In this document: in pieces, positions 33,006-51,781 of the stretch | Layout of the letters: each line of letters starts with the position of its first letter | How positions within the stretch are numbered: position 1 is the stretch's first letter | Assembly: GCA_046045965.1 (NCBI GenBank) | Contig: JBJOKS010000030.1 | Coordinates: 1-53,315, forward strand | Direction: 5' to 3' | Source: Cyanobacteriota bacterium | GTDB taxonomy: Bacteria > Cyanobacteriota > Cyanobacteriia > Cyanobacteriales > Nostocaceae | DNA length: 53,315 bases | Notes under the pieces: model-generated | Database searches by the model: none | Seen by the model: the letters and a program-made list of their open reading frames with translations, nothing else | What the model was told of the DNA's origin: nothing | Position numbers and translations under genes: made by a program

Positions 33006-33051
33006 TGGCTCAGGTCAGAATTGAACTGACGACCCCAGGCTTATGAGTCCC
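33006..33051 (-). tRNA. 3' half of a tRNA(CAT), probably tRNA-Met; displaced att core, not an intact gene
   Basis: Minus strand GGGA-CTCATAA-GCCTG-GGGTC-GTCAG-TTCAATT-CTGAC-CTGAGCC-A gives anticodon loop, T-arm and acceptor 3' strand; no D-arm or 5' acceptor strand upstream. Confidence 0.85.
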
Positions 33052-33120: not shown

Positions 33121-33199
33121 TCCCTTACTCCAAAAGACTTATACACTCCTTTTTGAGATAAACTTGACATCCTAGAATCCCAAGCTTAGGATTGACTCA

Positions 33200-33350
33200 G
33201 GCTATAGTACCCAAGTCAAGTTGAAAACAATGGTTAGTAAACTCTGACTTAACCCGCATCTGTGGTGGAAAGCTTCGCGTTAGTACATCCAGGTGAACTG
33301 AATACCCAACTTACCTGGAGAGAAGTATACAGGTCAACTCTCCTATAGCT
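33200..33350 (+). ncRNA. Putative small structured RNA with two GAA/AGUA loop-E hairpins
   Basis: Closing stem ggctatag/ctatagct; hairpin aagtca-agtt[GAAAACAATGGTTAGTA]aact-c-tgactt; variant gtg[GAA agc ttcgc gtt AGTA]cat. Confidence 0.6.
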
Positions 33351-33484
33351 TTGTGCTGCAATTTGGGTGTTTTAAGGGCTTATAATTTTCTTAATTATAT
33401 TCAAATAAATCTTCTCACAAGAGGCTAGGTGTCTTTCTTGACAACCTAGCTGTGTGTTTGTTATTCCTCTAAAGAAGCTAAATA

Positions 33485-34612
33485 CTAAATAAATAATTTA
33501 ACTAGAGCAAGTATTCCAATTGGGCTCCACGCAAGCTCTCTAGGTGCTTCAGCTATTTTAAGTATTTTATTTAAGATTAAACCTATCACAGCAGTTACAA
33601 AGAACCAACCATTAAATAACATTGTTAGACCCCCTACTGTTAAGAGAATAGTAAGTCTAATTGCAAAGTGAGGTGTGTTGTTGTGGATACTAACATACAT
33701 TTTTACAATATCTTCCCACCATATTAGCAAGATAAAGTTAAAAGCAGATAAGGTAGTTAGTAACCAGAAGCATTCAGCATTACCAAACACTTCCTTTATA
33801 GAAGGTATACTAAAAGCTGCTGCATTACTACTGCGTCCAATAGTTAGTAAGATAGCTAACCCAGTAGCACTAGCAACTGCATCAGCTACAGCATGTCTGC
33901 TAACAGTACAAGAAGCTGATTCATTCTCTTCTTGAAGTAATCTGCATACTGCATTGGTAGGTAGCCCCCATAGGAAACCACTTACTAAGCCAGCCCATAT
34001 TCCTTCTAATCTAAACTCTTTTGGGTCATGATACTCAGCATTCTCAATCTTCTCAGGTTTGTATCTGAACTCATTGATTAAGTTAACTGAGAATAGAGAA
34101 CTAGCTAATACAAATATAGGCTGTTTGATTGGCAGTTCTACAATGAGTAAGGTGAATACTACATAGAATACAAATCCAAGAGTTGCTGCTTTCCAATGTT
34201 TAGAGGCAGAGATTAGTAGCACCCACAATCCTACACCAATACAGACAGAGAGTTGTCTGACTAACTCAATATCTAGGATCTTAGTACCCTGAGTTAAGAT
34301 AGCAAAACCTAAGGCAGCTAACCAGCCAGCTTTTACTAGTTGATAAGAGAACATAGATGAATACATTAACTCATTCTTATTGGTATTTTGAGTAATGTTG
34401 TCATCTAAATCTTCTCTATGTTTAGAATGCAATAAAGATAAGTGTTTTAAAGAGGAGCTTGTAATGTCAACTCCTATTACTAATCCTATTGCAAACCTGG
34501 GTGCAGGTATGAAAGGTGCTAGAAGATAACCTAATCCCATATTGAATCCTGGTATTAGTGAACAAAGGATTCCTAATACTAAGCCAACAATTAAACCAAC
34601 TATTAACTCCAT
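33485..34612 (-). CDS. Multi-pass membrane protein, TctA/DUF112-like permease
   Basis: About 11-12 TM segments; N-terminal GLVLGILCSLIPG and internal repeat AGLVSGFLWGLP resemble the duplicated TctA motif. Confidence 0.6.
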   Translation of the reverse strand: MELIVGLIVGLVLGILCSLIPGFNMGLGYLLAPFIPAPRFAIGLVIGVDITSSSLKHLSLLHSKHREDLDDNITQNTNKNELMYSSMFSYQLVKAGWLAALGFAILTQGTKILDIELVRQLSVCIGVGLWVLLISASKHWKAATLGFVFYVVFTLLIVELPIKQPIFVLASSLFSVNLINEFRYKPEKIENAEYHDPKEFRLEGIWAGLVSGFLWGLPTNAVCRLLQEENESASCTVSRHAVADAVASATGLAILLTIGRSSNAAAFSIPSIKEVFGNAECFWLLTTLSAFNFILLIWWEDIVKMYVSIHNNTPHFAIRLTILLTVGGLTMLFNGWFFVTAVIGLILNKILKIAEAPRELAWSPIGILALVKLFI

Positions 34613-34632
34613 AATAGAAATCCTTTGTTTAT

Positions 34633-35217
34633 TTACTCAACGTCAACTACAACTGGATTACTGAATTCCCCTTCTTGGTAATACCAAGTTTGCTCAATGT
34701 CAGGTTTAACTTTACTAATTACATGTTCAGGAAACTCATAACTAGCTTCACTGGTATGAATAGTAAAGTATTTTTTGCCTCTCATTTTGTCAGTAATATC
34801 TTTGGGTACAGTATGTTTAACTGTTTTGACTTCTGGAACATTGCCAGTTGTGTCAACTACAGTTAAGTCTTCTGTAACTTTGTCAAACAGTAAATTACCA
34901 CTACCTCCAGACTCTACTTCTACTAGAGCTTTAACTCTAGTACCAGGTTTTCTTAACATGAAGTGGTCTCTATGCAAAATGGTAAACTCACATTGGTTAT
35001 TAGAGATAGTGGAATAGTAATTTTTAGCATTCCAGGTGTCTCTTCTAACATCAGTGACTATTCCCTTTACATAACCTCTAGTGTTTGGGGATAGTTCCTC
35101 ACAAGTATTAAGGTTGCCTATGACTACTTTTTTTGAATGTTGTGCTGCTTGGTCTATTGCGAAAAATAAAGGGATAAGCAACCCCACAGAAATTAATAGC
35201 TTTTTTGCTTTAGTCAT
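34633..35217 (-). CDS. Membrane-anchored protein with a probable OB fold
   Basis: Basic N-terminus plus hydrophobic anchor; GYVKGIVTDVR...YSTIS...PGTRVKALVEVE beta pattern. Confidence 0.55.
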   Translation of the reverse strand: MTKAKKLLISVGLLIPLFFAIDQAAQHSKKVVIGNLNTCEELSPNTRGYVKGIVTDVRRDTWNAKNYYSTISNNQCEFTILHRDHFMLRKPGTRVKALVEVESGGSGNLLFDKVTEDLTVVDTTGNVPEVKTVKHTVPKDITDKMRGKKYFTIHTSEASYEFPEHVISKVKPDIEQTWYYQEGEFSNPVVVDVE

Positions 35218-35375
35218 GTATTTGTAAGAACATAAGTCTTTATTTAAGTTTATCTAAATAAATGATACTCTCAGTATTGGTAGATTAAACAATATTAACT
35301 CTAATAAAAACTTATGTGTAATTTTACTAAATCAAAAAAAACTTATAAATTACTTAATCTAATAAATAAACATAC

Positions 35376-37040
35376 CTAACCAGCCCTCAACATTGACAAC
35401 TCAGGAACTTCCTCTACCTGCTCACCCCACAAATCATCACCATAAATATTACTGCTATCTCTCCTCTTCCAAGCATAAGCAGCCAAAGCTAAAGCCATCA
35501 CACAATCAGTAGCTAACCCTTTATCATCCAGTTTATAAAACCTTAGCTCTGTTTTAAGCTGTTTTAACCTATCCTGCTCATCATAAGGAATTATCAGCTT
35601 ACCCTTTTCAACCACCCCAGCAAGGTTAGATAGCATCAAAGTTTTGTGATTATGCTTTTGATTTCTGCCAACCTTCTTGTTAGAGTTAATAGGTGTACAT
35701 AACTCAGCTAAATCAGCAGGTAATTCCTTCTCCAAACTCTCCTTCAAATACTGACCTGCTAATGCAGTAGAGTCATAAAACAGGCTACCTGGGAATTGAT
35801 TTAACCTACGTCTAACCCTCTCTAGCACACCATTCTGGTCAAACAGAGGAGTTTTACTAATCCTTTCAAAAGCAACAATTCTCAACTCCCTATCAATAAA
35901 CTGAAGTGTGATCAGAACTGTACTATCACCATTGGTACTACCAGCCACATCACAACCAGTATAGAACTGTGAACCTGGACCACCTTTAGGTAAGTAGGGG
36001 ATGTCTAAACTAGCACCAGCTTCAGGTAAACAATCTCCTGTAAGTGGGTCATCAAGTGGAAAGAAGCAGCTATGTTTTTCACCTTTTTCAATAGCTAAAT
36101 CTAAATAATTGCCTGCAAAGAAAGTAGAACCATAATTAGCAAATTTACCATAGATTTCTTCCCTGACTTGAGCTTGAGTCATATTCACCATATTTGCCCT
36201 AATTGTTTCTTCAGGGTTACATGGATTATCAAATTGACTGAACTCAGCAATCACTACAGATTTATCCTGTTTAAGCCTTCTATCCTTAAACTCATTCCAC
36301 ATTTTCCTAAAGTAAATAGCACCCTGTCCAGCAGTGTCACCTTCACCTTGAGGAGTAGAAATAAAGTATTTACGTCCACTAACTTCAGTACCCCTAACAT
36401 TTAAAATCTTCATCCTTAAATGTTCTAGGGCATATTCAGAAGCAGCTTCATCTAATGTGGCAATATCTAAATAGAAACCTAAAATAAACCTACCCTTCTG
36501 AACAGTAGCTTGAAACCAGATAATACTATTCAGACAAGTTTCAATATAAGGTTGCTGTCCATCAGCAATGTGTTTAATAAATCCTATACTGTTCAGGAAT
36601 GGACTATCATTAACCAGGTTGATAATTTCATCCTTAACTAACTTGGCTTGCTTTAAACTAGGAGCGCAATTTAAAGATTGAAACCTTTTACTATAGTCAC
36701 CATAGAAAACAGAACTAACAGGTCTTTTTCTATAGAATAGAAACCATAAGTGCATGAGAGCAGTAACAAATGTTTTGCCACTTCTAGAGCCAGCTTTTAG
36801 CACACCTTCCTGAGACTTTACAGCTTGCCTCAACCATTGTCTTTGCTTAGGATGTCCATACACTATATCACCTGTTTCTGGGTGGATTCTTTCAACTTCA
36901 TTGAGGTAATAGTTTACCTTCTCACCAAGGAAATACTTGACAAATAGAACAGGGTCATTAGCACCAGCTATATATTGAATCCTTAATTTCTCTGACTTCA
37001 AAATACCTTCTAAATCAGAAGGAATAGAATGCAAATCCAT
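35376..37040 (-). CDS. terL: Terminase large subunit
   Basis: Walker A AGSRSGKT, Walker B ATLDEAA, motif III ISTP, nuclease GCDVAG...D...DCVMALALA. Confidence 0.92.
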   Translation of the reverse strand: MDLHSIPSDLEGILKSEKLRIQYIAGANDPVLFVKYFLGEKVNYYLNEVERIHPETGDIVYGHPKQRQWLRQAVKSQEGVLKAGSRSGKTFVTALMHLWFLFYRKRPVSSVFYGDYSKRFQSLNCAPSLKQAKLVKDEIINLVNDSPFLNSIGFIKHIADGQQPYIETCLNSIIWFQATVQKGRFILGFYLDIATLDEAASEYALEHLRMKILNVRGTEVSGRKYFISTPQGEGDTAGQGAIYFRKMWNEFKDRRLKQDKSVVIAEFSQFDNPCNPEETIRANMVNMTQAQVREEIYGKFANYGSTFFAGNYLDLAIEKGEKHSCFFPLDDPLTGDCLPEAGASLDIPYLPKGGPGSQFYTGCDVAGSTNGDSTVLITLQFIDRELRIVAFERISKTPLFDQNGVLERVRRRLNQFPGSLFYDSTALAGQYLKESLEKELPADLAELCTPINSNKKVGRNQKHNHKTLMLSNLAGVVEKGKLIIPYDEQDRLKQLKTELRFYKLDDKGLATDCVMALALAAYAWKRRDSSNIYGDDLWGEQVEEVPELSMLRAG

Positions 37041-37783
37041 TAGTCATCATCTCCCAACTCATACTGAATCTCTACATCTGCTGGTTTAAGTTGTAATAAC
37101 TCATCAACTCTAGCTTCAGGATTAGCTGTTAGGTATGCTTTAACTAAATCTTGGATCAACTCTTTGGGTTCTACACTTAACTGTTCATATAAACCTTGAA
37201 GTGTAAGTTCATTTTCATTTTTATCTCTGAGTTCTTTTTTAGTTTTCAAAGTAGCATTAATCTGAGCTTGATGAATCTGGATTATTTTGGAAACATCAGA
37301 GATAGCTTTACTCAAACCATTGATATTATTAGTAATAACTTCTACTTCTCTAACTGATTCTCCATTTAGAGAATTACTCATTTCTACTGCTGCATTGTAC
37401 CTTTCTATTAACTCTGTCTGATGGTCAATAAGCCTACCAATCATAGCATCAGACAACATAATACTGTCTTCTAGTAGACGTTCTTTACTGTAATCAGTAG
37501 CTAATAACTCCTTTCTTTCTTTAGCAGTTAATGATTTAATTGCTCTCATATTTTCTTGTTTAACTAATTTAGAATGTAGACCATGTGTGATTCTTGCTTT
37601 AGCTGCTTTACCTCCATGAGTAGCACAACATTTGTAGCCAAGCATCACATTATTTTTACACTGTGTACCATCTTTTTTAATAACAGGACACCTTTGAGGT
37701 TCAGGTCTTCTACCTGATTTATATCTGTGTTTATAAACTGGACTTTTTTTATAACTTTCACTAGCAATGTGAGGCATTGACAC
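37040..37783 (-). CDS. terS: Terminase small subunit (HGGxSTG-type)
   Basis: RC-x9-C-x9-C-x2-HGG...HGLHSK followed by a helical region; coupled to terL. Confidence 0.75.
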   Translation of the reverse strand: MSMPHIASESYKKSPVYKHRYKSGRRPEPQRCPVIKKDGTQCKNNVMLGYKCCATHGGKAAKARITHGLHSKLVKQENMRAIKSLTAKERKELLATDYSKERLLEDSIMLSDAMIGRLIDHQTELIERYNAAVEMSNSLNGESVREVEVITNNINGLSKAISDVSKIIQIHQAQINATLKTKKELRDKNENELTLQGLYEQLSVEPKELIQDLVKAYLTANPEARVDELLQLKPADVEIQYELGDDD

Positions 37784-37854
37784 TAATAAAAAACTTACAT
37801 ACTAATAGTGTAATTGATAAAATATAGTTATATGTGTACTTTATTTAAAATAGT

Positions 37855-38562
37855 ATGTTAGACAATCAACAAACCAAAGTCACTCCAATCATTGAGACTA
37901 AAAGTTCAGAAGAGCAAATTTATGGTATTTACAACAGGTATTTAAAAACAGGTAATATAAGTTTATTTGAAATTATTATTTTACTTATAGCATTTGGCAG
38001 TTTAGCTTTAACTTGGATTAATCATATCAGGCTAATAAAAACTCCAATTAGCAACGCTATTACTTATCTAACAAATAATCATCTGCATGAGGTTAGGGAA
38101 ATAGAAAATACCTTATCAGAAATGTTAGCAGTAGCTCAATGTCATAGAATAGCAGTAGGCTTATTCCATAATGGTAAATCTGTAGGTAAACATCACTTTA
38201 ATAAAATGAGTGTATTTTATGAAGTAGTAGCTCCTGGTATAACTCCACTAAAAGATGAACTTCAAAATATATCACTTTCTAAAATATATGATGATATAGA
38301 AAGCAGCAGTGGACAAAGTTTTATTAAAGTTTCAGCAGAAGATAAAAGTTTAAAAAGTAGATGTGTAATGCACTTAGACAGTATTGGAGTAAAAGAATTA
38401 TTATCTAGATTATTAGTAGCCCCCAATAAAGGTATCTATGGCATCATCCAACTACACTGGGTTGAAAATACCACAGAGAACATATTAGAAAATCCTGCAA
38501 TGGTAGCTCAATTAAATAAGCTATTTAACAGATTGGTTATTTCAATAGAGGAGAATCAATAA
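37855..38562 (+). CDS. Single-TM protein with GAF-like C-terminal domain (possible T4-T-like holin)
   Basis: One TM at about aa 36-55; RIAVGLFHNG...KMSVFYEVV...QNISLS...GIIQLHW pattern. Confidence 0.5.
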   Translation: MLDNQQTKVTPIIETKSSEEQIYGIYNRYLKTGNISLFEIIILLIAFGSLALTWINHIRLIKTPISNAITYLTNNHLHEVREIENTLSEMLAVAQCHRIAVGLFHNGKSVGKHHFNKMSVFYEVVAPGITPLKDELQNISLSKIYDDIESSSGQSFIKVSAEDKSLKSRCVMHLDSIGVKELLSRLLVAPNKGIYGIIQLHWVENTTENILENPAMVAQLNKLFNRLVISIEENQ

Positions 38563-38564
38563 AT

Positions 38565-39980
38565 TTATGGAGCTATTTCCATTATTACCATATAGTTAGG
38601 AGTAACTGAACTAACAGTTAAACTACCACCACCAGTTTGATTTACTCTAATGCTGTAAAGTCTAGAAGTTGTTGAATCAGCAGTTGTGTAATAAACAACA
38701 GTTACAGGCTCAGGATAAGCATCACTTCTTCTACCAATATTATTTTGATATTGCGTTTTAATTGTACTATCTTGATATACAGCTAAACTATAGTAATGAG
38801 TATTATTACTGGTAGATTTAGTTACACCTCCTATAAATGCTGTTATGTAAATAGTTGAAGTAGCACTTAAAGGAGTTATGTTAGCTTGAATAACAGAAGA
38901 CCAACTTCCATTAGTATTTACAATCCAACCAGGAACAGATGCAGTTACTACTTGTATTACTTTACCTCCTCCACCAGCAGAAGGAGTTTGTGGTTCCCAT
39001 CTGGTATTAGCAGTGTTATAAGTTAATACTTGACCATTTGTAGGGGTTACATTATGTACAGTTCTACTTTGAAGTTGGTTAGCATTCCATTGAGCAGTAG
39101 TGTTTCCTACCTGGGCAGCAGTAACACTATGTGGATTACTTGTATTACCAGTATGTGAAGTTAAATCAGTAGTAGAGGGTACACTAAGATTTGTTCTAGC
39201 AGCAGCAGCAGTAGAAGCTCCTGTACCCCCTTTTCCAATAGAAAGAGTATTTCCTATATTGTTTAAATTTAGACTTGATTCAATTACATCTAAATCAATT
39301 TCAGAATTAGCAGCGTCATCTACAATACTCATTCTGATGCTGGGAACTAACTTTTTAAACTCTAAATCAGTTCCTACTTTTTGTTTAAATACACCTATTC
39401 CTATACCAGTAAGTCCAACATTACTTGCTGTGTTAACTTCACCAGTAGAAGGTAATGTTTGATTAGTCCATTCTCCAGTAGAATTATTATAAATTAATGC
39501 TTGACCATTAGCAGGTGAAGTAATAGTTACATCAGTTAAACTATCTAAATTAGAAGCACCAGCAGAAACAGTATCAAATTCTAAATTAGTGGTAGCAGCA
39601 TTATATTTTAAAACCTTACCATCACCTATAGCAGAATCATCTACATTTATTCCTCTAATTTTATCTGCATTCCATTGAGCAATATTATTACCTACCTGAC
39701 TAGCAGTAACATTGTGAGGATTAGATGTATTTGCAATGTGATTACTAATAGTAGAATCATCTATAGTTGTGCCTTGAGCTATTAAATCCCAATCTAATGC
39801 AGTTGCACTAGGTTCTTCACTTGTAGTTTTGTTAGCTCTGTAACTAGACCCTTCATGAAATACACCTTCATTGCGCCTATAAACACTAGCATTATCCCAA
39901 TCACCTAACCAAATAACAGAGATACCATTAACAGTAGGAATAGGACTAGAAGGAGTGCTTGGATTAATTTCTATAGCCAT
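38565..39980 (-). CDS. Virion fibre / receptor-binding protein
   Basis: Duplicated H..NTSNPH.VTA.QVG...AQWNA blocks, GQ(A/V)L.YN repeats, KGGTGASTAAAARTNL and a C-terminal GKVIQVV domain. Confidence 0.8.
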   Translation of the reverse strand: MAIEINPSTPSSPIPTVNGISVIWLGDWDNASVYRRNEGVFHEGSSYRANKTTSEEPSATALDWDLIAQGTTIDDSTISNHIANTSNPHNVTASQVGNNIAQWNADKIRGINVDDSAIGDGKVLKYNAATTNLEFDTVSAGASNLDSLTDVTITSPANGQALIYNNSTGEWTNQTLPSTGEVNTASNVGLTGIGIGVFKQKVGTDLEFKKLVPSIRMSIVDDAANSEIDLDVIESSLNLNNIGNTLSIGKGGTGASTAAAARTNLSVPSTTDLTSHTGNTSNPHSVTAAQVGNTTAQWNANQLQSRTVHNVTPTNGQVLTYNTANTRWEPQTPSAGGGGKVIQVVTASVPGWIVNTNGSWSSVIQANITPLSATSTIYITAFIGGVTKSTSNNTHYYSLAVYQDSTIKTQYQNNIGRRSDAYPEPVTVVYYTTADSTTSRLYSIRVNQTGGGSLTVSSVTPNYMVIMEIAP

Positions 39981-39981
39981 A

Positions 39982-40989
39982 TTAATACCCCTTTAAAGTT
40001 CCTCTGATAAAGATTTGTGTGTCAGCTTGAGTACCTGTAACTTCTATTTTGATAATATTTGTATTCACCAATGAATAACTTTTCACAATAGTATTATCAG
40101 TAGTCAAAGTACCAACATCTTGCCAAGCAATACCTACTAATTCTTTGAGAATAAAACTGACATTAGCTGTAGCAACAACCTCAATATCTAATCTCTTATA
40201 ATTTTTAACATCAATGAATCCACCTATGTAAGTTTGTACATTTACAATAGTTGGAATACCAAAGGAATCATTATCTAAATCTAACTGGAATAAAGGTACA
40301 GTGTCTTCCAATTCAGTTTGATGATCAACTAGATAAGAAATAGTAAATTGTCCTGCTGAAGTCCATGCACCATTAGTAGCTGACTTTTCAATTAATGCAG
40401 CTTTATCTTCTAATTGATATTGTCTTTCAAGTTGCTTTAACTCAATAGCAGTTAATCTTTTCTGATCACCAATAGTTAAATCTTTTTGTTCTTCCCTAGC
40501 AATTAAAGCTAACTTATCTTCCAAACTGTCCTTACAACAAGTTTTAGAAGCTCCATTAGCAATCAAATCTAAAACATCTGATTGAGTCCAGAATTGAGCA
40601 GCAGTTAATGTACCTAACTTGTGAATAGTAATATAAGCTTTCAGATGTAGAAAATAATCTGTTTGTGCTTTTTCTATTAATTCCCTGTCTCTAGTAATGG
40701 AAGTACCAGAAGCAGAATCATATTTAACTACAGGGTCACTAACAAAGTAATATTTAACCCCAAATCCTATTAAGTTCCAAGCATCAATAAAGTCTGCCTC
40801 TAATGAAGTAATAGCTCCACTAGACACAGTAGAAGTTATATCAGTTAAACCTTTAGCTTGAAGATCAGATATTACAGATAGTGTAAGTAAATTAGCTCTA
40901 TTACTATCAACAATGCTAGTGGTAGTGTCATTTAAAGCAGGGCGTAAATAGTTATTAAAAAAGTCATTCCAACTAATTGATACTGGCAT
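39982..40989 (-). CDS. Putative virion (head-completion/adaptor-like) protein
   Basis: Position after the capsid gene; helical N-terminal half and beta-rich C-terminus; no firm motif. Confidence 0.45.
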   Translation of the reverse strand: MPVSISWNDFFNNYLRPALNDTTTSIVDSNRANLLTLSVISDLQAKGLTDITSTVSSGAITSLEADFIDAWNLIGFGVKYYFVSDPVVKYDSASGTSITRDRELIEKAQTDYFLHLKAYITIHKLGTLTAAQFWTQSDVLDLIANGASKTCCKDSLEDKLALIAREEQKDLTIGDQKRLTAIELKQLERQYQLEDKAALIEKSATNGAWTSAGQFTISYLVDHQTELEDTVPLFQLDLDNDSFGIPTIVNVQTYIGGFIDVKNYKRLDIEVVATANVSFILKELVGIAWQDVGTLTTDNTIVKSYSLVNTNIIKIEVTGTQADTQIFIRGTLKGY

Positions 40990-41007
40990 AATTTTAAATT
41001 CATATTT

Positions 41008-41679
41008 TTAAACTAATCTGTCAGGAAATCTTTTTACATAATTGATAATAGTATTCTTGGGTAGACTTTGAATGCTACTACTAGAGGTGTATTGTTGATA
41101 AGTCAAACTAGAAGCAGTGACTTTAACATTTGCATTATTATTAAAAGCTGGATTAACTGTAAAAGCTTCTGACAAGTTTTGTAAAAATAATCCTGACTCA
41201 TCATATTGATAAAAATCAGCAAGCCCTCCATAAGTTTTAGAAGTACCTATATGAAAGAAGAAACTTTCTTTAAAAGGTTGCTGTCTAGGTCTACCCCATG
41301 AACCAATAGGATAAGTATTAGGATACCAATATTCAGGGTCTATGTGGGTTATTAATGTTTCATTATCAGATAACTCTAACAAGCTAGTTGCAGGTGAACT
41401 TATATTAATACCTGAACCAAATCTGTTAATTATATTAGCAGTGCTGTTGATATATCCTGGAATGAAATAAGCAGCATAAACAGTAGGACTACCATCTAAA
41501 ACACAAGTGGCATTATCTACATTTATAGTTACTCCCCCAGCAGTTTGTAATTCATCTCTGTTAGTTAAAAATGATAACTCTGGAACATAAACTAATCCAG
41601 AAAACTGATTGATAATTGATGCTAATAACAAATCTTTTTCTAGTGATTTGTACCTTTCTAAATCTGCAAACATAATCAT
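41008..41679 (-). CDS. Hypothetical structural-module protein
   Basis: 223-aa ORF co-oriented between the capsid and adaptor-like genes. Confidence 0.55.
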   Translation of the reverse strand: MIMFADLERYKSLEKDLLLASIINQFSGLVYVPELSFLTNRDELQTAGGVTINVDNATCVLDGSPTVYAAYFIPGYINSTANIINRFGSGINISSPATSLLELSDNETLITHIDPEYWYPNTYPIGSWGRPRQQPFKESFFFHIGTSKTYGGLADFYQYDESGLFLQNLSEAFTVNPAFNNNANVKVTASSLTYQQYTSSSSIQSLPKNTIINYVKRFPDRLV

Positions 41680-41703
41680 TTAAGGGGGAATTTCACCCCC
41701 TAA
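41680..41703 (-). terminator. Hairpin immediately after the major capsid gene
   Basis: Minus strand ttagggggtgaaattccccctta; a typical attenuating position after MCP, but with no U-run. Confidence 0.45.
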
Positions 41704-41717
41704 TTTTTAGGAATTAA

Positions 41718-42791
41718 TTAAAGATTAGTAGGTACAGAATAGCTGGTAGCATTCAATTGTAGAACTGCACAAGCACCTCTATGGTTAGGAGCATAACCCC
41801 AGCCGTCACTCATCACAGTATTCTCTAAAGCAAAGCTAGATTTAACTTCAGTTTGTAACCCAGCTAAACTTGCAATAGCAGGAATTCTACTGAGGAAAGG
41901 TGCTTTGTTAGCTCCTCCATCAACACCACAACAAATTGCATAACCTACAGGAACAATGGGTGTTTTAACAATAGGAACATTACTAATGAAACCAACTAAA
42001 CCCTCCCAAGGAGATAGCTGTCTCATTCTTTCATTTGTAACTCCACCAGTAGCAATTTCAAGGTTACGTCCAATTTGGTTTTCTGCTGGTACAAAACCAC
42101 TTAAAGCTTCCAGAGAATATTCATAATCAGAAATCCATATTTCTAATTGCTTGTAACCATGATGTCTAATTTTATCAATTAGCTTTGTGCGTATCTCAGA
42201 TACAGTAGGACTACCAGCAACAGCAACAGCATTGTAATGTTGTAAATCTCCAGGTTGGAAACTATAGCCATTTACAGCAGGTGCAGCAACAGAACTATCA
42301 GAATTATAGAAAGGAATAGTAGTAGTTTGATATTTGTTAATTGAGTCAATTACTACTCTGTTAGTGTTGTTGAAAATAGCTTGACGTAATGCACTAAATC
42401 TAGCTTTTTGGAAAGAGGTTAATTTAGCTTGTACATACCCAGCCAACTCATCAGAAGTCATCATTTTAACTGCTCTAGTAGAAAGAGTTAATGCAGTAAA
42501 AAACTCTTCAAAAGGAACTTCTTGAGTGTAGTCCCAAACAGTAGAGCGAGAACTAGGTCTAGCTGATTCAGTTAAACTTTCAAGTTCTTCACCATCATAA
42601 TATTTGACAACTTTCTGAGGGGTACTAATTGTTTCTACTAATGGAGAAAAGAACCTAGAGTTCATGTCATTGTAGAACATCATATCCTGGTCTAATTCTC
42701 GCAGGATAGATACTACAGATTGATTATCAATAGTTACTAACTCAGTATCATTAGAGCTAAGTTCACCAAAAAAAGTAGTTGAATAAACCAT
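41718..42791 (-). CDS. Major capsid protein (probably HK97 fold)
   Basis: 357 aa; position after portal, scaffold and cement genes; LTESARP E-loop-like and VGFISNVPIVKTPIVPVGY C-terminal patterns. Confidence 0.75.
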   Translation of the reverse strand: MVYSTTFFGELSSNDTELVTIDNQSVVSILRELDQDMMFYNDMNSRFFSPLVETISTPQKVVKYYDGEELESLTESARPSSRSTVWDYTQEVPFEEFFTALTLSTRAVKMMTSDELAGYVQAKLTSFQKARFSALRQAIFNNTNRVVIDSINKYQTTTIPFYNSDSSVAAPAVNGYSFQPGDLQHYNAVAVAGSPTVSEIRTKLIDKIRHHGYKQLEIWISDYEYSLEALSGFVPAENQIGRNLEIATGGVTNERMRQLSPWEGLVGFISNVPIVKTPIVPVGYAICCGVDGGANKAPFLSRIPAIASLAGLQTEVKSSFALENTVMSDGWGYAPNHRGACAVLQLNATSYSVPTNL

Positions 42792-42818
42792 ATATTTTTA
42801 GATAATTAATTATTTGAA

Positions 42819-43232
42819 TTAAACAGAAATTTTAACTTTGTTAGCAGTGAGAGCAATCCCAACTTTCTTAGTTCCTGTACCTGCTACAATCCCAGCAGCA
42901 CCAGCATAGACAACTGTGCCAGGAGTCAACCCTAAAGTAGTACCTTTATTTTCAATAATGCAATCACTATCAATTGCTAAAGTTGTACCTGCTTTTCTAC
43001 TGTATCTAGCCACTCCTATAGGCTCAAGAGAAGCAGTACATAGGATTGCTTGACCTGAAGAATTAACAGCTACTACTGCACCTTCTGGAATGTCTACTGC
43101 ACACACTAAATTAACAATAGAACCATCCAAATGAGATGAGTTAATAAATCTATAAAGGACTGTATTGTAAGCTACGTTTTGCATAATTTTAAAATGTATA
43201 AATAGATAAATTAAATTTAATAACCACGCCAA
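42819..43232 (-). CDS. Capsid cement/decoration-like protein
   Basis: Small G/A-rich beta protein (GAVVAVNSSG, PIGVA, LTPGTVVYAGAAG, KVGIAL); start may be the internal MQNVAY. Confidence 0.6.
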   Translation of the reverse strand: MAWLLNLIYLFIHFKIMQNVAYNTVLYRFINSSHLDGSIVNLVCAVDIPEGAVVAVNSSGQAILCTASLEPIGVARYSRKAGTTLAIDSDCIIENKGTTLGLTPGTVVYAGAAGIVAGTGTKKVGIALTANKVKISV

Positions 43233-43597
43233 GGTTTAACTTTGCGTTCTTCTTCAGCAGAAGTTTTACTAACAGATACTCCAGGCTTTGTAACCATAGA
43301 TTTACTATTATTAGTAGAGTTTTTAGTTAAAGCAGCTTGCAATGCAGTCTGTATTTTAGGAACTAAATTCTCTTTTAACTCTGCTTCTAAAGCTTGCTGT
43401 TTGGCTAACAAATCTGAAACCACTTCTTCTTGGGTAGAACCAGTTGGTTTAATACCTAACAGTTTAGCCATCCTTTGAAAATCAGGTTTAGTTTGAGCTA
43501 ATGCAGCCTCATAATCAATCTCAGGACTGGGAGGTGTAATAGCCTCTAAACCTAAATCTAATTCTTGGTTTTCTATTACTTGTGTTTGCTCATCCAT
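43217..43597 (-). CDS. Putative scaffolding protein
   Basis: Acidic N-terminus, coiled coil and basic C-terminus; lies between portal and capsid genes. Confidence 0.55.
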   Translation of the reverse strand: MDEQTQVIENQELDLGLEAITPPSPEIDYEAALAQTKPDFQRMAKLLGIKPTGSTQEEVVSDLLAKQQALEAELKENLVPKIQTALQAALTKNSTNNSKSMVTKPGVSVSKTSAEEERKVKPWRGY

Positions 43598-43599
43598 AG

Positions 43600-44952
43600 T
43601 TAGTCAATTGCGCTATCTTGAAATAATGTACTGTCATCAACATTAGGTTTATCTTTAGAGTCAGTCAAAGCAGCAGAATATTGAATGTTTAGACCTTTTT
43701 CATTATCTAACTGTTCTAGCTCTTTTAATGCTTCCTCTTCAGTTAAACCTTCAGTTTCAATTAGGTATCGCTTCCTAGAAATTAACTTATGTCTAACAGC
43801 TTCAATTTGCAGTTTCTTATCTTGTAAATCTCTAGGCATCATGTCAGGTAATTCAACCCTAAATGGAATGTCAATACCTAACTCTAGGAATATAGTTTTA
43901 ATAGCTGAAATTAAATGGTTAGCTCTGGTTAATGTACTTTTTTGCAATGGTTCATACAAAACAGAAAGAGAAGATGAACTAGAAGCTGACCTAGCATTCT
44001 GTAGCTCTAAAACCATTACTCCAGTTAGATTATAAATATCTTGGAGAATGATTAATCTTTGCCTTTCTAAGTATGGGCTATCAATTGGTTGTAGGTATCC
44101 AATTTTAGGAACTATCCCCAATTCAGCAGCAGCATTAGAGATAGGAAGATGGAGAATTGAAGCACCATCATTAGTAAATGCTGTTTGGAAAGCTGCACTA
44201 CCTGTAGGTGAATCTACACTCTCAAGTTGACTTGAATTAGTTCTACCAATAATAGCAGGTGCAGATGTTCCAATTGTGTAGACTTGAGGTTTATGATGTT
44301 TGCCATTAAGATTAATTCTAGACCTGACTTCACAATACTCAAGCTGCAAATGAATTAATCTTTCAATAGCAGACTGAGCAGTGCGTCCATCCAAGGAATT
44401 CACTAACCTAACTATAGGAATGTGATCACCTAAGTCTACTGGTTCACCTCCATCTTGTTTAACAAAATATCTATAAGATGGTAAGTTGAATAAATCTAAA
44501 CTTGACTGATTCTCTGTGGGGAGAGTCAGATAATGTTCTACCTTTACCTTTTTGTAAGTGTTAGTAACTGGGTCATAAATTTCTCTATTTTCCTTTAGGT
44601 ATACAACCTTCAATGGATCAAGAGGGTCAACCTTTACATCATCAATATCAATTGTTCTAATATGACGTAAGTTGCCATCAGAAACCTCAATATAAGCCTC
44701 TCCAAAGATGGGAACATCAGTGTAAACATCATTCAGTAAACTATAAAGTTTAATCTGCTCTAATTGAGAATTTAACTCTGATTGCTGCTCAGGATTGATA
44801 GCTAAGAATTTAATTTTCTTTGCAAACCCATCACCCAGTAAAAATGATTTAAGTTGCTCAACTACTAGCTGAATTAATTTAATTGGTAACTCTCTATTGC
44901 CAGCAGGATTTATACCTTGATAAGCATCCTTTAATTCTTGTTTGCTTGCCAT
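43600..44952 (-). CDS. Portal protein
   Basis: 450 aa, first gene of the head operon; FGEAYI, IPIVRLVN...SAIE, SASSSSSL and LISRKRYL...TEEEALKELEQL patterns resemble SPP1-type portals. Confidence 0.78.
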   Translation of the reverse strand: MASKQELKDAYQGINPAGNRELPIKLIQLVVEQLKSFLLGDGFAKKIKFLAINPEQQSELNSQLEQIKLYSLLNDVYTDVPIFGEAYIEVSDGNLRHIRTIDIDDVKVDPLDPLKVVYLKENREIYDPVTNTYKKVKVEHYLTLPTENQSSLDLFNLPSYRYFVKQDGGEPVDLGDHIPIVRLVNSLDGRTAQSAIERLIHLQLEYCEVRSRINLNGKHHKPQVYTIGTSAPAIIGRTNSSQLESVDSPTGSAAFQTAFTNDGASILHLPISNAAAELGIVPKIGYLQPIDSPYLERQRLIILQDIYNLTGVMVLELQNARSASSSSSLSVLYEPLQKSTLTRANHLISAIKTIFLELGIDIPFRVELPDMMPRDLQDKKLQIEAVRHKLISRKRYLIETEGLTEEEALKELEQLDNEKGLNIQYSAALTDSKDKPNVDDSTLFQDSAID

Positions 44953-45169
44953 TTAAAAATAAGAATTTACTTATATTTATTATATACATTAATTTGGCTG
45001 ATGAAAAGTAGGCTGAATGATAAGAAGTATAGATAGTTGGTTTAATATGTATGTTCTGTACCAGTAGGCTGGGGCAGGTGACTTATGGCGGGGGGTGTAA
45101 TAAAGTTGTCTATAATATTCAAGGTGGCAGACAGCTACCCTTTTTAATTGAATCATGCCCTTAACATTC

Positions 45170-46123
45170 AGTGGTCTTAGGATTGTGTGCGGAACTTATT
45201 CTGCCTACTTAGTAGGATGTGTGCCAGTTCCTATTCTGCCTGAGACCAAAGGTGTTTAGATGAAACCATTGAGACTTCTACATGAAAGACTCTTAGGAGG
45301 CTGACTAGTGTGGAGGTGTAGATAGTTGACTTAGTGAAAACTTCTTAGGAAGCTGATTAGCTTTGTTAACTGTCTGCAACATAGGTTGATGGGATTAAGT
45401 TCTCGCCCTGTGTTCTACAATGCGGATTAGTCTGTAGCCTATAGAAGGAATTGTAACAGTCCCAAAAGACCTCTATGGTTAGGGAAATGTTTAAGCCTTC
45501 TATACTCTCTGCAACTGTAACTCCCTCAGAAGACCCTAGTGGTTAGAGGTTGTAGTTTAAGGTAGAGAGCTGAATGGTCTGTTGCTGAAAGCTTTAGTTT
45601 AGCTAATATCTTACAGTGAAAACAATGGTTAGTAACTGTGAGGTACATGACTGCGGTAAGTTGGGAAAACAATGGTTAGTACCTAATTGCCAGAAGCAGC
45701 ATGAGCTAAACTAATTGGGCTAGTAAGCAGCAGTTGGGTGTATACTCCCTAAGTTTATAGTTAGTCACTCTTTATTCTGTTCTTCTTTAAGAGACTGTTT
45801 AGCTTCTCACCTGTAGTTATCTAAGGTCACTCACCTAGTGCTGAACGCTTCAGTGGTAAGACCTCAGTTAGCCCCTCACTAGAAGAGATATCTAGGGAAC
45901 AGCTAGGTAAACTTAGAGTACAGCTCTAGGTAACTCACTACTGAGCCTACTAAATAGATGCTTCAGTAGTCAGCCTGTAGTGTCTAGATATACAGTCTAC
46001 TTAATCTTCACTCACTAAGAGACAGTGGGAACAGTAAACAGCACATACAGGAATTAACAATCTTTAGTTTGCAAACAATCTTTATTAACACATCTCTTCA
46101 ATAGCTGTTAATAGAGTTTTTTT
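45170..46123 (+). ncRNA. Putative large (~0.9-1 kb) modular structured RNA
   Basis: ORF-free; consecutive stems with G-U pairs on the + strand, duplicated covarying modules and three loop-E motifs; TATAAT at 45111-45116 and a hairpin plus U7 at 46080-46123. Confidence 0.75.
46080..46123 (+). terminator. Putative intrinsic terminator closing the structured region
   Basis: ctttattaaca/tgttaatagag stem followed by T7. Confidence 0.5.
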
Positions 46124-46171: not shown

Positions 46172-46612
46172 ATGAATACATACTTTCAAGAAGCCTTAAT
46201 GGTAGTTCAATCAGAACAGTTTAGTAATGAGTTCAAGTCAACAGTTAAGTTTATTCTAAGATTAGTTAACTTATTGTTTTTAGTAATAGCTGGTTTATTT
46301 ATTTTAGTTAGGGGATTTTTCTGTAGACAGCCTAAGCATAAACAATTAACAGAAGTAACAGAAAACAGTAATGAGTCTACTAATGAGGACAGCAATGATG
46401 TAGAGACTTTAGAGGAGCAGGATATTAGTGATTCTAGTTTAGAGAATCAGACTGAGGTTGATAAATCAGGGAGGCATAAAGAGTTAAAGTTAATGAAGGC
46501 TGCTCAACTTAGACAGCTATGTGGGGCATACTCAATTGACTATAAAAATAAACTTACTGCTATTGAATCAATACTTTCACATGAATACTGTGATGTAGAA
46601 ATTCCATTCTAA
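46172..46612 (+). CDS. TM-anchored protein with acidic linker and a C-terminal HeH/Rho-N-like domain
   Basis: TM at about aa 28-50; ELKLMKAAQLRQLCGAYSI...KLTAIESIL; RBS aagga; ends EIPF. Confidence 0.6.
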   Translation: MNTYFQEALMVVQSEQFSNEFKSTVKFILRLVNLLFLVIAGLFILVRGFFCRQPKHKQLTEVTENSNESTNEDSNDVETLEEQDISDSSLENQTEVDKSGRHKELKLMKAAQLRQLCGAYSIDYKNKLTAIESILSHEYCDVEIPF

Positions 46613-46627
46613 GTTAACTCTTTTTAT

Positions 46628-46655
46628 TTAGGGAATAAATAGTTATACTCCCTAA
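46628..46655. terminator. Hairpin between convergent genes
   Basis: ttaggga...tccctaa stem. Confidence 0.5.
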
Positions 46656-46665
46656 GTTTATCTAG

Positions 46666-46806
46666 CTACTCATCTTCATGAGGATTATAATTGGGGTTGC
46701 TCAACTTAGCAGACTTATCTAAGTTCTTCTTTAGTTTCTTCCAGCTAGGGTCTTCAACAGTATTACAATACTTATTTGGTTTCTTATCTTTATTATCTTC
46801 TGTCAT
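46666..46806 (-). CDS. 46-aa hypothetical protein (below the ORF-track cutoff)
   Basis: MTEDNKDKKPNKYCNTVEDPSWKKLKKNLDKSAKLSNPNYNPHEDE*; converges on the hairpin. Confidence 0.4.
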   Translation of the reverse strand: MTEDNKDKKPNKYCNTVEDPSWKKLKKNLDKSAKLSNPNYNPHEDE

Positions 46807-46913
46807 AACTAATCCAATTTTATTACTACTTAATTAAATAACTACATGACATCTCTATAATAATAGTATATGTAGTTAATAATGTAGTTATTTATAAATC
46901 AGTTAACTAAATA

Positions 46914-47186
46914 ATGGAAATTCAATTTATAGGTGGTTTAAGGGTTTCTCATAAAGAACTAAGTAAATTGTTTAATGTTAAGCCCTCTCAACTTAAGAAA
47001 ACTATAGAACAGTATCATAAACACTTTGAAGACTATGGTTTCCTTTATGAATCAGCAGGTGAATATTACTTGAGCTATCCTCAATGTGAGGTTGCTGTTC
47101 TCTTTACTGTATCAAGTAACCTTGAGGCTAGAAGTTTATTCAGTAAACTAAACAAAGAGTTTGCTAACTTTAAGAAATCTTATTGA
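46914..47186 (+). CDS. Rha-like phage regulatory protein
   Basis: VSHKELSKLFNVKPSQLKKTIEQY...FEDYG...YYLSYPQC pattern. Confidence 0.55.
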   Translation: MEIQFIGGLRVSHKELSKLFNVKPSQLKKTIEQYHKHFEDYGFLYESAGEYYLSYPQCEVAVLFTVSSNLEARSLFSKLNKEFANFKKSY

Positions 47187-47617
47187 TTGATTGCTCTGCG
47201 TACAGGAAACCAATATAGTAGGCTGTAGTATAAGTGTACTATGCGTGATTACTAAAGTGAAGTATACTAAATATGGCACACTAAATTCAGCAGACTATCT
47301 GTAAGTTAACTAAGCTCCAGTCACCTAAATGTCAGTCAACTAATCTCAAGCAAACTCAATTCAGGCAACTAATTCTGTAGATTAGAATCACTCCACTAAA
47401 TCAAAGGCAACTGAATAAGTTATCTCTTCATTAAACAACTTAAATTTAGTTGTCTTATTGTCAAAATTTCATATTTTACACTTTACCAAGTTTTACTTCT
47501 CTGCAAGTTTTAGTCATCTGTTATTTTCTTTTATTAGGGTTAGATATATATAGGGTTTTATGTAGCGGGCTGTTTGTTAAATGCCTAGATTATGCGGGTT
47601 TTATTGTAGTGAGCTAA

Positions 47618-47646
47618 TTGACTTGTATTCTATTAAATGTTATATT
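47618..47646 (+). promoter_or_regulatory. Sigma70-type promoter for the RHH-antirepressor-Rep operon
   Basis: TTGACT, 17-bp spacer, TATATT, with extended -10 TG at 47638-47639. Confidence 0.7.
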
Positions 47647-47701
47647 ATATATAGAGTTCATTAGAACTCACTTAATAATATAACTAACTAAAATAAAGAT
47701 T

Positions 47702-47854
47702 ATGCGACTAGATAGAATTACTTCAATCAGACTATATGCAGGTCATGGTGAACAACTACAAAAGATTGCTGATTTGAAGGGGCTAGATAAAGCAGACATC
47801 ATCAGAACAGCAGTCAAAACATATTTAGACAATTACAATAGTCAATCCCTATAA
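47702..47854 (+). CDS. Ribbon-helix-helix (CopG/Arc-like) repressor, 50 aa (not in the ORF track)
   Basis: MRLDRITSIRLYAGHGEQLQKIADLKGLDKADIIRTAVKTYLDNYNSQSL*: beta strand TSIRL followed by two helices. Confidence 0.8.
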   Translation: MRLDRITSIRLYAGHGEQLQKIADLKGLDKADIIRTAVKTYLDNYNSQSL

Positions 47855-47929
47855 ATAAATAGTCTCCTTATTGAGGGAGACTTAATTAAATTACCTTTTA
47901 TAAATTAACCAATATATATATATTCTAAT

Positions 47930-48736
47930 ATGACTAACTTAAATATTTCTATTCAATCTCAGATTAAAGCTACAGTTGAGGCAGGTGGACAATTTCCAGT
48001 AGACTTTGAATTAGCTTGGCAATGGTTAGAATATTCTTCTAAGGGTAATGCTAAAAGAACTTTGACAGCTAACTTTGTAGAAGGGATAGATTATTCCTCA
48101 CTTATCACTATTGAGAAGCGAGAAATTGGGGCTACCAGAGTTGAAGAAATCTATTTAACAGCAGACTGTTTCAAACAACTTGCTATGCTTTCAGGTACAC
48201 CTAAAGGAAAGGAAGTTAGATTATACTTTATTGAATGTGAGAGACAATTAAAAGCTATTTACTCTGGTGATTATTTAGCTACATTGAAAGCTTTAGTGGC
48301 AGCACAAGAAGAGAAGCAGGCATTATTATTGAAGGCTGCCCAAGCTGAAGAGAAAGTAATTGAGTTAGCTCCTAAAGCTGAAAGTTGGGAACGACTTTGT
48401 GGCACTAATGGACTAATGACTATTGGTGAGGTTGCTAAGAATTTGGCTATCCCTGGTTTGGGTCCAAATAAGTTATTTCAATTGCTAAGAGATAAAGGAT
48501 ACATATATTATGATTATCAAGGCTGTAATGTTCCTAAATCTACTCTTGTAGAGAAAAAATATATGAAAAGTGTAGAGAAATATGACTTTAAAAGAGATAA
48601 AAAATATTCAGTATGTGCAGTTACTTATAAAGGTTATGAGTTTATAGTCAGATTGTTAAAAAGACTTGGATATATTTCTGATACTCCTGTTCCAAATGCA
48701 GGCGTGTTACCTATACCTTATCAAGTAGCAGCCTAA
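47930..48736 (+). CDS. Phage antirepressor (AntA/B-like N-terminus plus KilAC/ANT C-terminus)
   Basis: FPVDFELAWQWL...FVEGIDY...KGKEVRLYFIECE; ELAPKAE...IGEVAKNL...GPNKLFQLLRDKGYI. Confidence 0.88.
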   Translation: MTNLNISIQSQIKATVEAGGQFPVDFELAWQWLEYSSKGNAKRTLTANFVEGIDYSSLITIEKREIGATRVEEIYLTADCFKQLAMLSGTPKGKEVRLYFIECERQLKAIYSGDYLATLKALVAAQEEKQALLLKAAQAEEKVIELAPKAESWERLCGTNGLMTIGEVAKNLAIPGLGPNKLFQLLRDKGYIYYDYQGCNVPKSTLVEKKYMKSVEKYDFKRDKKYSVCAVTYKGYEFIVRLLKRLGYISDTPVPNAGVLPIPYQVAA

Positions 48737-48742
48737 ACTAAT

Positions 48743-48780
48743 AATGGAAGAAGGTCTGTCTCCTAAAACCCTCTTCCATT
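48743..48780. terminator. Hairpin after the antirepressor gene
   Basis: aatggaaga...tcttccatt stem. Confidence 0.5.
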
Positions 48781-48859
48781 TACTACAAAAATAACATATA
48801 ATACTCACCTGAATAGTAATATTATACTACAAAAATACTTATAATACAATTGAATAAAT

Positions 48860-50911: not shown

Positions 50912-50935
50912 TTGGGGTAAGGGCAGCTAACCCAA

Positions 50936-51407
50936 CCCCCTTTCTAGCAGCCTGCACAACCCTTTCTCTTTATATAAAATAATAATTTAGGTTGTGCAGC
51001 ATTACTAAGTATAGAGTTAATTTAGAGTATAATTTATTAGTAAGTATTACTTAGTTAAATGTAAAGTAAATATAGAGGTAATCTAAGTTTAGAGTAAATC
51101 TTCTTATCTCTATACTGCAAGAAGGTTTTTTATAAAAACAGATTTCCTTTTGAGATAGAAAAAATACTAACTTTAAGCTACCTCTTTCAGTTATAGACTG
51201 AAACTTATTAGTTACACAGTCCCCCTTCTAGCAGACTGCACAACCTAAATTATTTATTTATATAAAGAGAAAGGGTTGTGCAGCATTAGTTAATATTTAG
51301 TTAATTAATTACTAATGGTAACAGTAAACCAAGTTTAGCTAATCTCAAGTTATAGGTAATCTAAGTTTAGGGTAAATCTTCTTACCTTTATACTGCAAGA
51401 ATGTTTT
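50936..51407. repeat. Duplicated origin-like unit with an inverted hairpin loop (putative ori)
   Basis: CTGCACAACC-N28-GGTTGTGCAG at 50952-50999 and 51236-51283; second shared block aggtaatctaagtttag...tatactgcaagaa at 51076-51123 and 51354-51401. Confidence 0.85.
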
Positions 51408-51502
51408 ACGGGCTGTAGTTTAGCCAAGTGGCTACTATAAATTACACACAAAATTAGTGACCAACATCACACAAACCTTTAAAACCATGCTTTAGTGTTG
51501 GT

Positions 51503-51781
51503 TTGTTAATTAGCCAGGTGTATATTATGACTGATAAACAAAATCAAGAAACACTTAAATTAGACCCAGTGAAAGAAGAAGTGGGTACTAAATTACAACA
51601 AGTTCTCCAGTTGCTAATAGAAGTACAGGCTACTCGTATAGATGGGGATCTACCTTATAGTGCTAATAAGGCAATAGCTAATATAGTGAGGAATCCTCCA
51701 GAGTATACTGCTATGGTGGATCACTTATTAGACAAGACTGGAGAACTTATAGATTATATAAACAATGGAGAAATAAACTAA
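51503..51781 (+). CDS. Hypothetical protein (likely start MTDKQ at 51527)
   Basis: Helical ORF; aggtg upstream of ATG 51527. Confidence 0.55.
   Translation: MLISQVYIMTDKQNQETLKLDPVKEEVGTKLQQVLQLLIEVQATRIDGDLPYSANKAIANIVRNPPEYTAMVDHLLDKTGELIDYINNGEIN

What the first reader, a model, noticed from the sequence alone, without database searches (positions are those of the whole stretch)
33200..33350. Second structured RNA near att shares the exact 17-nt loop found 12 kb away
Seen: TGAAAACAATGGTTAGTAA at 33222-33240 is identical over 19 nt to 45617-45635 but is closed by a different stem (aagtca-agtt/aact-c-tgactt). A variant gtg-GAA-agc-ttcgc-gtt-AGTA-cat follows at 33265-33288, then ccaggtga/ttacctgg, all inside ggctatag/ctatagct. 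It is on the same strand as the large RNA. Inference: the element makes two RNAs carrying the same recognition module, either partners in one RNP or a small regulator of the large one. A conserved loop with replaced stems argues against simple duplication.
Basis: partly seen in the sequence, partly recalled or inferred. Interest (0 to 1): 0.75.

Follow-up and report, generated by a model that had tools for sequence, protein, structure and literature searches.

The report
Two prophage RNAs share hairpin module
A virus dormant in filamentous cyanobacteria carries two undescribed folded RNAs built on the same pair of hairpins; they probably bind the same kind of partner rather than each other, and their function is unknown.

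Summary
Observation confirmed. The 17-mer occurs three times in the 5.29-Mb genome (33223, 45618, 45665), all in one ~20-kb tRNA-integrated prophage. It is a GAA/AGUA internal loop (E-loop type, label recalled) with a short cap.

The att-side element recurs in related prophages and remnants, behind a sigma70-type promoter kept in 8 of 9 loci. Its covariation is modest (4 of 59 pairs). The distal domain covaries strongly (28 of 55) and lies in a ~590-nt stretch with contig depth 500-1000 in one metatranscriptome. A model of the small RNA finds that domain as its only hit in genomes lacking the small RNA, so the two share the whole two-hairpin architecture.

The partner idea is weak. The exact cap is a family consensus (8 of 30 hairpins), no cap is shared in the other genome holding both, and among 10 capsid-bearing genomes 2 have both, 1 small only, 3 large only, 4 neither.

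Best reading: paralogous RNAs that independently present one recognition module, probably to a host protein. No Rfam match or paper found.

The parts
33006..33049 (-). att site: 3' part of a tRNA with CAT anticodon, left end of the prophage
   Evidence: Partial tRNA match; 98% copy in a full tRNA-Met(CAT) on contig C2 followed by a related integrase
33164..33192 (+). sigma70-type promoter TTGACA-17-TAGGAT; inferred start about 33199-33200
   Evidence: 10 of 12 consensus; TTGACA + 17-18 nt + TAnnnT in 8 of 9 loci examined
33200..33350 (+). small RNA core, closed by P1 (33200-33207 with 33343-33350)
   Evidence: Alignment of 9; P1 93% of cells paired, no two-sided change; contigs in RNA libraries X2 (33214-33358) and X5 (ends at 33343 in adapter), low depth
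33213..33250 (+). hairpin H1: 10-bp stem, GAA/AGUA loop, 3-bp cap with AAUG loop
   Evidence: Stem 98.8% paired, 1 two-sided change; cap variable
33313..33342 (+). most conserved block: hairpin P5 GAGAG/CUCUC, whose loop CAGGU can pair with the adjacent ACCUG (pseudoknot or alternative fold); absent from the large RNA
   Evidence: Both helices 100% paired in 9 of 9; P5 has one two-sided change, the ACCUG pairing none; low probability in single-sequence folds
33360..33460 (+). conserved AT-rich tract and inverted repeat holding a second TTGACA (33438); may be a 3' hairpin of the RNA or the promoter region of cargo genes
   Evidence: the tract or repeat survives without the RNA core in G134, G169 and G217
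45140..45727 (+). large modular RNA (~590 nt) between the portal gene and the Ant/rep operon, made of duplicated hairpin modules whose number and order differ among relatives
   Evidence: 100%-identical contigs 45140-45450 (depth 1052) and 45421-45720 (526) in run X1; alignments; module scan. Strand inferred from pairing, not measured
45579..45727 (+). 3' domain of the large RNA: outer GAA/AGUA loop plus two capped hairpins (17-mers at 45618 and 45665)
   Evidence: z -4.09; 28 of 55 pairs with two-sided change, 0 of 500 shuffles
33485..44952 (-). prophage late genes and cargo, convergent on the small RNA: terminase large subunit 35376-37040, tail-fibre-like 38565-39980, major capsid 41718-42791, portal-like 43600-44952
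   Evidence: PHROGs and Pfam; portal match weak (E 5e-4)
46172..53235 (.). 146-aa membrane-anchored ORF, antirepressor, replication protein, integrase

Best explanation
The att-side element is a separately promoted small non-coding RNA of a Nostocaceae prophage family. Its 5' half is a paralog of the 3' domain of the prophage's large modular RNA. Shown: both have a closing helix and two tandem hairpins in which a GAA/AGUA loop and the next 2-3 pairs are kept while stems and terminal loops change, and each RNA occurs without the other. Inferred: the kept loop is a docking surface. The two RNAs present it independently and bivalently to the same ligand, most likely a host RNA-binding protein, and act as decoys or scaffolds: the small one from a host-type promoter in the lysogen, the large one as an abundant multi-module version. 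The exact 17-nt identity is the family's preferred cap, not a base-pairing or partner signal.
For: The small-RNA model's only whole-genome hits in G169 (E 1.4e-6) and G217 (2 hits) are the large domain; in the own genome it is the second hit, E 1.4e-5; alignment. Two cap sequences recur in both RNAs across different genomes. Promoter kept in 8 of 9 loci. Variable pairs show 58 G-U against 3 A-C cells on the + strand (partly by construction). Large domain covariation 28 of 55. Independent occurrence among 10 capsid-bearing genomes: both 2, small only 1, large only 3, neither 4; the small RNA or its 5' part is also in 4 genomes with no capsid match and no large domain. The adjacent phage protein p146 was not found in 0-of-5 test genomes and is missing beside the G028 large RNA, which points away from it as the ligand. 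Large-RNA modules are duplicated and reordered among relatives, as expected of independent binding sites.
Against: No ligand was identified; protein binding is inference. Small-RNA covariation is weak: 4 of 59 pairs, 17-24 of 500 shuffles reach it, and folding energy is not significant. The GAA side is altered in some hairpins (G187 H1, G184 H2). The RNA is truncated or deleted in several loci (G068, G215, G129, G028, G169, G217). Transcription of the small RNA rests on low-depth unstranded contigs, two of which reach upstream of the promoter and may be DNA or read-through. The p146 genome search had no positive control. Related genomes are not independent samples.
Confidence: 0.45

Rival explanations
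1. Cis-acting antiterminators like HK022 putL/putR: each two-hairpin module folds on the nascent transcript, binds RNA polymerase and lets it pass terminators, one right after the att-side promoter and one upstream of the Ant/rep operon.
For: Same layout as put: two related two-stem RNAs in a temperate phage, one just after its promoter and one a few hundred nt downstream (PMC9378689, passages). H1 starts about 14 nt after the inferred start. A host ligand would explain independence from phage proteins.
Against: A same-strand gene follows the small RNA in only 3 of 8 loci (G225, G222, L077); 4 have a convergent gene and 1 an IS fragment (and the window ORF list). A second promoter-like site lies in front of the cargo anyway. 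Five of 10 capsid-bearing genomes have no large domain. The large RNA appears as a high-depth piece.
Confidence: 0.2
2. One reading: the two RNAs are partners in one particle, either an RNA-only assembly like ROOL/GOLLD with the loops as tertiary docking sites, or the small RNA binds and regulates the large one.
For: An E-loop docks a helix onto the core in raiA RNA (PMC12968392, passage). Prophage RNAs ROOL and GOLLD form RNA-only cages (10.1101/2024.12.08.627333, passages). The P5 loop can pair with 45730-45744 at -13.3 kcal/mol.
Against: Both RNAs together in only 2 of 10 capsid-bearing genomes, and no cap shared in G187. The P5 duplex is matched by 2 of 30 shuffles against the large RNA and is no better than the best site elsewhere in the prophage. 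Module order in the large RNA is not fixed.
Confidence: 0.15
3. The small RNA is a decaying paralog: once functional, now often lost, with the shared 17-mer simply inherited or refreshed by recombination.
For: Partial deletions at the same slot in 6 genomes; weak covariation; no significant folding energy.
Against: Full-length copies at 78-88% identity in G184, G225, G187 and G222 keep the promoter and 94.7% of paired cells; the P5 block is nearly invariant; changes are mostly G-U compatible.
Confidence: 0.13
4. The repeats are DNA sites (operators or packaging signals), not RNA.
For: They lie near a promoter and near the probable packaging region; other short DNA-like repeats exist there.
Against: Stems covary, wobble pairs fall on one strand, the terminal loop length varies, and the large region has high depth in an RNA library.
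Confidence: 0.04

Closest known systems
ROOL RNA (about 581 nt) and GOLLD RNA (about 800 nt)
   Same: Large structured non-coding RNAs of prophages, often near tRNAs, function unknown (PMC5737381 passages; 10.1101/2024.12.08.627333 passages). The large RNA here is of ROOL's size.
   Different: No Rfam match even at relaxed E-value. The host is cyanobacterial; modules are duplicated and shuffled; a small paralog has its own promoter; oligomerisation untested.
HK022 putL/putR antiterminator RNAs
   Same: Two related two-stem RNAs in one temperate phage, one promoter-proximal and one further downstream (PMC9378689 passages).
   Different: put is about 70 nt and works in cis ahead of early genes. 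Here the module is embedded in ~150-nt and ~590-nt RNAs, and the small one often faces convergent genes.
E-loop (loop E / sarcin-ricin, bulged-G) motif
   Same: 5'-GAA opposite 5'-AGUA between helices (consensus recalled, from no call); such a loop serves as a docking surface in raiA.
   Different: A generic motif, not a family. Here the hairpin cap lies between GAA and AGUA, and it occurs in tandem.
CsrB/RsmZ-type protein-sponge RNAs (recalled)
   Same: Repeated hairpins with one conserved motif on variable stems, and paralogous RNAs of different size.
   Different: The motif is an internal loop and not a GGA terminal loop; the RNAs are phage-borne; no ligand is known.
manA motif RNA
   Same: Structured RNA found in cyanophages that forms closed oligomers (10.64898/2026.07.01.735769, one passage).
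   Different: No Rfam match for either RNA.

Membership tests
Any Rfam 15 family (ROOL, GOLLD, raiA, manA and HEARO are recalled to be among them) | Match to the family covariance model | tested here: not met
   0 at gathering score in the window; only chance-level hits and the tRNA fragment at E up to 10; only tRNAs in 8 homologous loci
ROOL/GOLLD-like prophage RNA | Encoded in a prophage, often near tRNA | tested here: met
ROOL/GOLLD-like prophage RNA | Large (over 500 nt) with many multistem junctions and pseudoknots | tested here: inconclusive
   Small RNA is about 150-230 nt (not met). Large RNA is about 590 nt, but only its 3' domain was tested for covariation and module order varies
ROOL/GOLLD-like prophage RNA | RNA-only oligomeric cage | not testable with these tools
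   Needs native gels or cryo-EM
HK022 put antiterminator | Two related two-stem RNAs downstream of two phage promoters | tested here: inconclusive
   Promoter clear for the small RNA; no + strand consensus promoter for the large one
HK022 put antiterminator | Genes downstream on the same strand that need read-through | tested here: inconclusive
   3 of 8 small-RNA loci; the large domain precedes a same-strand operon
HK022 put antiterminator | Binds the RNA polymerase beta' zinc-binding domain and suppresses termination | not testable with these tools
   Needs an in vitro transcription assay
E-loop motif | GAA opposite AGUA, flanked by helices, conserved while the helices vary | tested here: met
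   Invariant in 5 of 5 aligned large domains; GAA kept in 8 of 9 small H1 and 8 of 9 small H2, AGUA in 9 of 9 and 8 of 9. Consensus recalled; 3D geometry untested
RNA anti-CRISPR (solitary CRISPR repeat mimic; recalled) | Similarity to host CRISPR repeats | tested here: not met
   Best exact match 8 nt, E at least 0.2, against 8 repeat candidates from the own genome, 3 of them CRISPR-like arrays
Dispersed host DNA repeat | Many copies across the chromosome | tested here: not met
   3 copies, all in the prophage

The most novel reading that the evidence does not exclude
These prophages build several RNAs from a kit of interchangeable binding modules: a very abundant multivalent scaffold whose modules are duplicated and shuffled, and a stand-alone small RNA that carries one module fused to its own switchable pseudoknot. 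The small RNA would titrate the same host factor during lysogeny and so tune or replace the large one. That would be an RNA-only, mix-and-match system for sequestering host proteins, not described in phages as far as my searches reached.
Probability: 0.2. Interest if true: 0.85.

Novelty: new variant of a known kind. Interest (0 to 1): 0.6.

Why it matters
Large prophage RNAs such as ROOL and GOLLD have structures but no known function. Here a new cyanobacterial pair isolates one shared module in two different settings, with natural variants that show which letters matter, and with natural single-RNA lysogens. That makes the ligand question directly testable by one pull-down with an AGUA mutant. 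Temperate phages of bloom-forming Nostocaceae are little described; the closest capsid in the phage record collection is only 22-26% identical.

Tried and rejected
Rfam, at gathering score and by E-value: nothing. Phage and plasmid record collections: no DNA match for the small RNA, nor for the large RNA in phages. Viral contigs: 14 exact 17-mer hits, none with a closing pair; the small-RNA pattern found 0; the tandem pattern gave 2 hits in a lysine/serine-rich coding repeat. The small-RNA model found nothing in 150 class-level genomes besides the own one. The large-domain model found 1 of 150 family genomes; its G222 hit is a short tandem repeat. CRISPR-repeat mimicry and spacer targeting: no support. 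Antisense target for the P5 loop: none beyond shuffles, apart from its own complementary strand. p146 as ligand: only leads to a SAP/Rho_N-like domain (Pfam E 0.11, Atlas score 0.89). In run X1 the small-RNA core is not among the listed pieces (10 pieces not shown) and the 33261-33721 bin averages depth 1.9, while no piece covers 45721-46600; contigs cannot show absence or level and short RNAs may be lost in library preparation, so I draw no conclusion. Resemblances to hairpin and HDV-like ribozymes were considered from memory and dropped because strand order and spacing do not fit; no call tested them. Earlier findings of the scan: none returned. The original GOLLD/HEARO paper could not be read, so nothing is claimed from it.

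Full report
Setting. The window ends in a ~20-kb prophage. It starts at a tRNA 3' fragment at 33006-33049 and holds terminase, tail-fibre-like, major capsid, portal-like, antirepressor, replication and integrase genes. The capsid has relatives at 71-88% identity in 9 of 300 family genomes, 11 loci, and in 3 of 400 order genomes, all in the same family. A pattern scan of the genome collection for the small RNA returned 5 titled records: Cylindrospermum, Nodularia, Dolichospermum, Nostoc and an uncultured cyanobacterium. They overlap the handle set and are not added to my counts.

Observation. The 17-mer occurs at 33223, 45618 and 45665 and nowhere else in 5.29 Mb at 0-1 mismatch; about 1e-5 copies are expected in the element. 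A descriptor search gave 13 genome hits, 3 in these RNAs and 10 unrelated weak ones. Read as RNA, the motif is stem-GAA-3 bp-loop-3 bp-AGUA-stem, which I recognise from memory as an E-loop with a short cap.

The small RNA. A DNA search matched 19 of 300 family genomes at E 0.01 or better. Six were strong (G184, G225, G187, G068, G222, G215), two were informative fragments (G134, G129) and 11 were weak hits that I dropped. Three more copies came from metagenome contigs. The six strong copies lie next to a tRNA gene or att fragment, at Ala, Val, Arg and CAT-anticodon sites. G225, G187, G222 and G215 have phage genes or fragments nearby; G184 and G068 show none in 20 kb. A TTGACA-17/18-TAnnnT promoter precedes it in 8 of 9 loci. 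On nine aligned rows the proposed fold has 94.7% of cells paired and 4 of 59 pairs with a two-sided change, and 17-24 of 500 shuffles reach these values. Folding energy is not significant. Variable pairs hold 58 G-U and 3 A-C cells on the + strand, which favours that strand but is partly built into the structure chosen. The segment CAGGUG has two possible partners, and single-sequence folds split 5 to 3 with one undecided, so a switch is possible and unproven. The most conserved block (33313-33342) has no counterpart in the large RNA. Contigs from RNA libraries cover the small RNA in three studies at depth 5-12; two of those contigs reach upstream of the promoter, so they may be DNA or read-through. 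Transcription is likely, not shown.

The large RNA. The domain 45579-45727 has three GAA/AGUA loops and folds at z -4.09. In 5 aligned copies 28 of 55 pairs change on both sides and 0 of 500 shuffles reach that; a sixth copy outside the training set scores 135 bits. In run X1, 100%-identical contigs cover 45140-45720 at depth 1052 and 526, against 3-7 for four equally identical contigs elsewhere in the prophage. Contig depth is a poor measure of expression and gives no strand, and this is one run of four, but the contrast is large. Upstream of the domain the RNA is made of other duplicated hairpin modules whose number and order differ among relatives.

How the two relate. The covariance model of the small RNA, trained without the large one, finds the large domain as its only hit in G169 and G217 and as second hit in the own genome. 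The alignment shows a closing helix and two tandem hairpins in register. The reverse search is weak (19-21 bits). The cap is not fixed: the exact 17-mer is in 8 of 30 hairpins, and a shorter 16-nt variant occurs in three small second hairpins and one large first hairpin from a genome without the small RNA. In G187 no cap is shared between the two RNAs. Among the 10 capsid-bearing genomes, 2 have both (G000, G187), 1 only the small (G225), 3 only the large (G169, G217, G028) and 4 neither (G018, G050, G245, G283). G217 and G225 are single-contig assemblies; in G169, G028 and one G217 element the att-side slot is assembled and shows only remnants. The other genomes are drafts, so absence there means 'not found'. 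The RNAs are therefore not obligate partners, and the exact identity in this window reflects the family's commonest cap.

Mechanism. A loop kept on replaceable stems, twice per RNA, in two RNAs that occur alone, is best read as a docking surface for an outside ligand. The phage protein next to the large RNA (p146, weak SAP/Rho_N leads) is missing beside the G028 large RNA and was not found in small-only genomes, and the small RNA persists where no phage genes remain, so a host ligand is more likely. I put decoy or scaffold at 0.45, put-like cis antitermination at 0.2, direct partnership at 0.15, decaying paralog at 0.13 and DNA site at 0.04. The ligand and the biological effect are inferred, not shown.

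What is known. No Rfam family matches. Nine paper searches listed nothing whose title or abstract start describes these RNAs; I saw listings only, and most subscription journals and all supplements were outside the search, so a listing in a supplementary table of predicted RNAs cannot be excluded. I read passages of PMC5737381 (ROOL), 10.1101/2024.12.08.627333 (GOLLD/ROOL cages), 10.64898/2026.07.01.735769 (manA), PMC12968392 (raiA E-loop), PMC8450098 (one general statement on loops as binding sites) and PMC9378689 (put). The finding resembles ROOL/GOLLD in setting and putL/putR in layout, and belongs to neither by the tests I could run.

Verdict. Interest 0.6; new variant of a known kind.

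Noticed in passing
window 45140-45727: The large RNA is the stronger finding: very high contig depth in one metatranscriptome and several kinds of duplicated modules that are shuffled among relatives. Only its 3' domain was tested for covariation.
   Followed up: partly
L029:16250-16500, L030:9060-9275, L062:2140-2375, L063:12160-12420: A third conserved, foldable leader sits in the att-side cargo slot of four relatives and is absent from this window. One of its repeated motifs also occurs inside large RNAs (window 45393; L035 15306 and 15356).
   Followed up: partly
window 46172-46612: 146-aa protein with an N-terminal membrane helix, acidic linker and SAP/Rho_N-like tail (leads only). It follows the large-RNA region in 5 relatives but not in G028.
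   Followed up: partly
window 45743 and 46646: A 14-nt repeat, TACTCCCTAAGTTT, occurs 1-2 times upstream of the portal in nearly all relatives, including those without the large RNA; probably a DNA site.
   Followed up: partly
window 45065-45100: A GC-rich box upstream of the portal gene is conserved in relatives; possible packaging or genome-end signal.
   Followed up: no
G000:C2:227477-231137: The intact tRNA-Met(CAT) is followed by a related but not identical integrase, origin-like repeat and replication-gene end, suggesting a second element at the same site.
   Followed up: no
window 50930-51407: A pair of 48-bp inverted repeats and direct repeats right after the replication gene; likely origin.
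   Followed up: no
L060 1548-2014 (G184) and L061 18038-18497 (G068): Promoter and small RNA remain beside a tRNA with no other phage gene in 20 kb; full length in G184, 3'-truncated in G068.
   Followed up: partly
window 33485-44952: The late region shows no tape-measure or tail-tube match, only a fibre-like gene; a small short-tailed or satellite-like element is possible.
   Followed up: no
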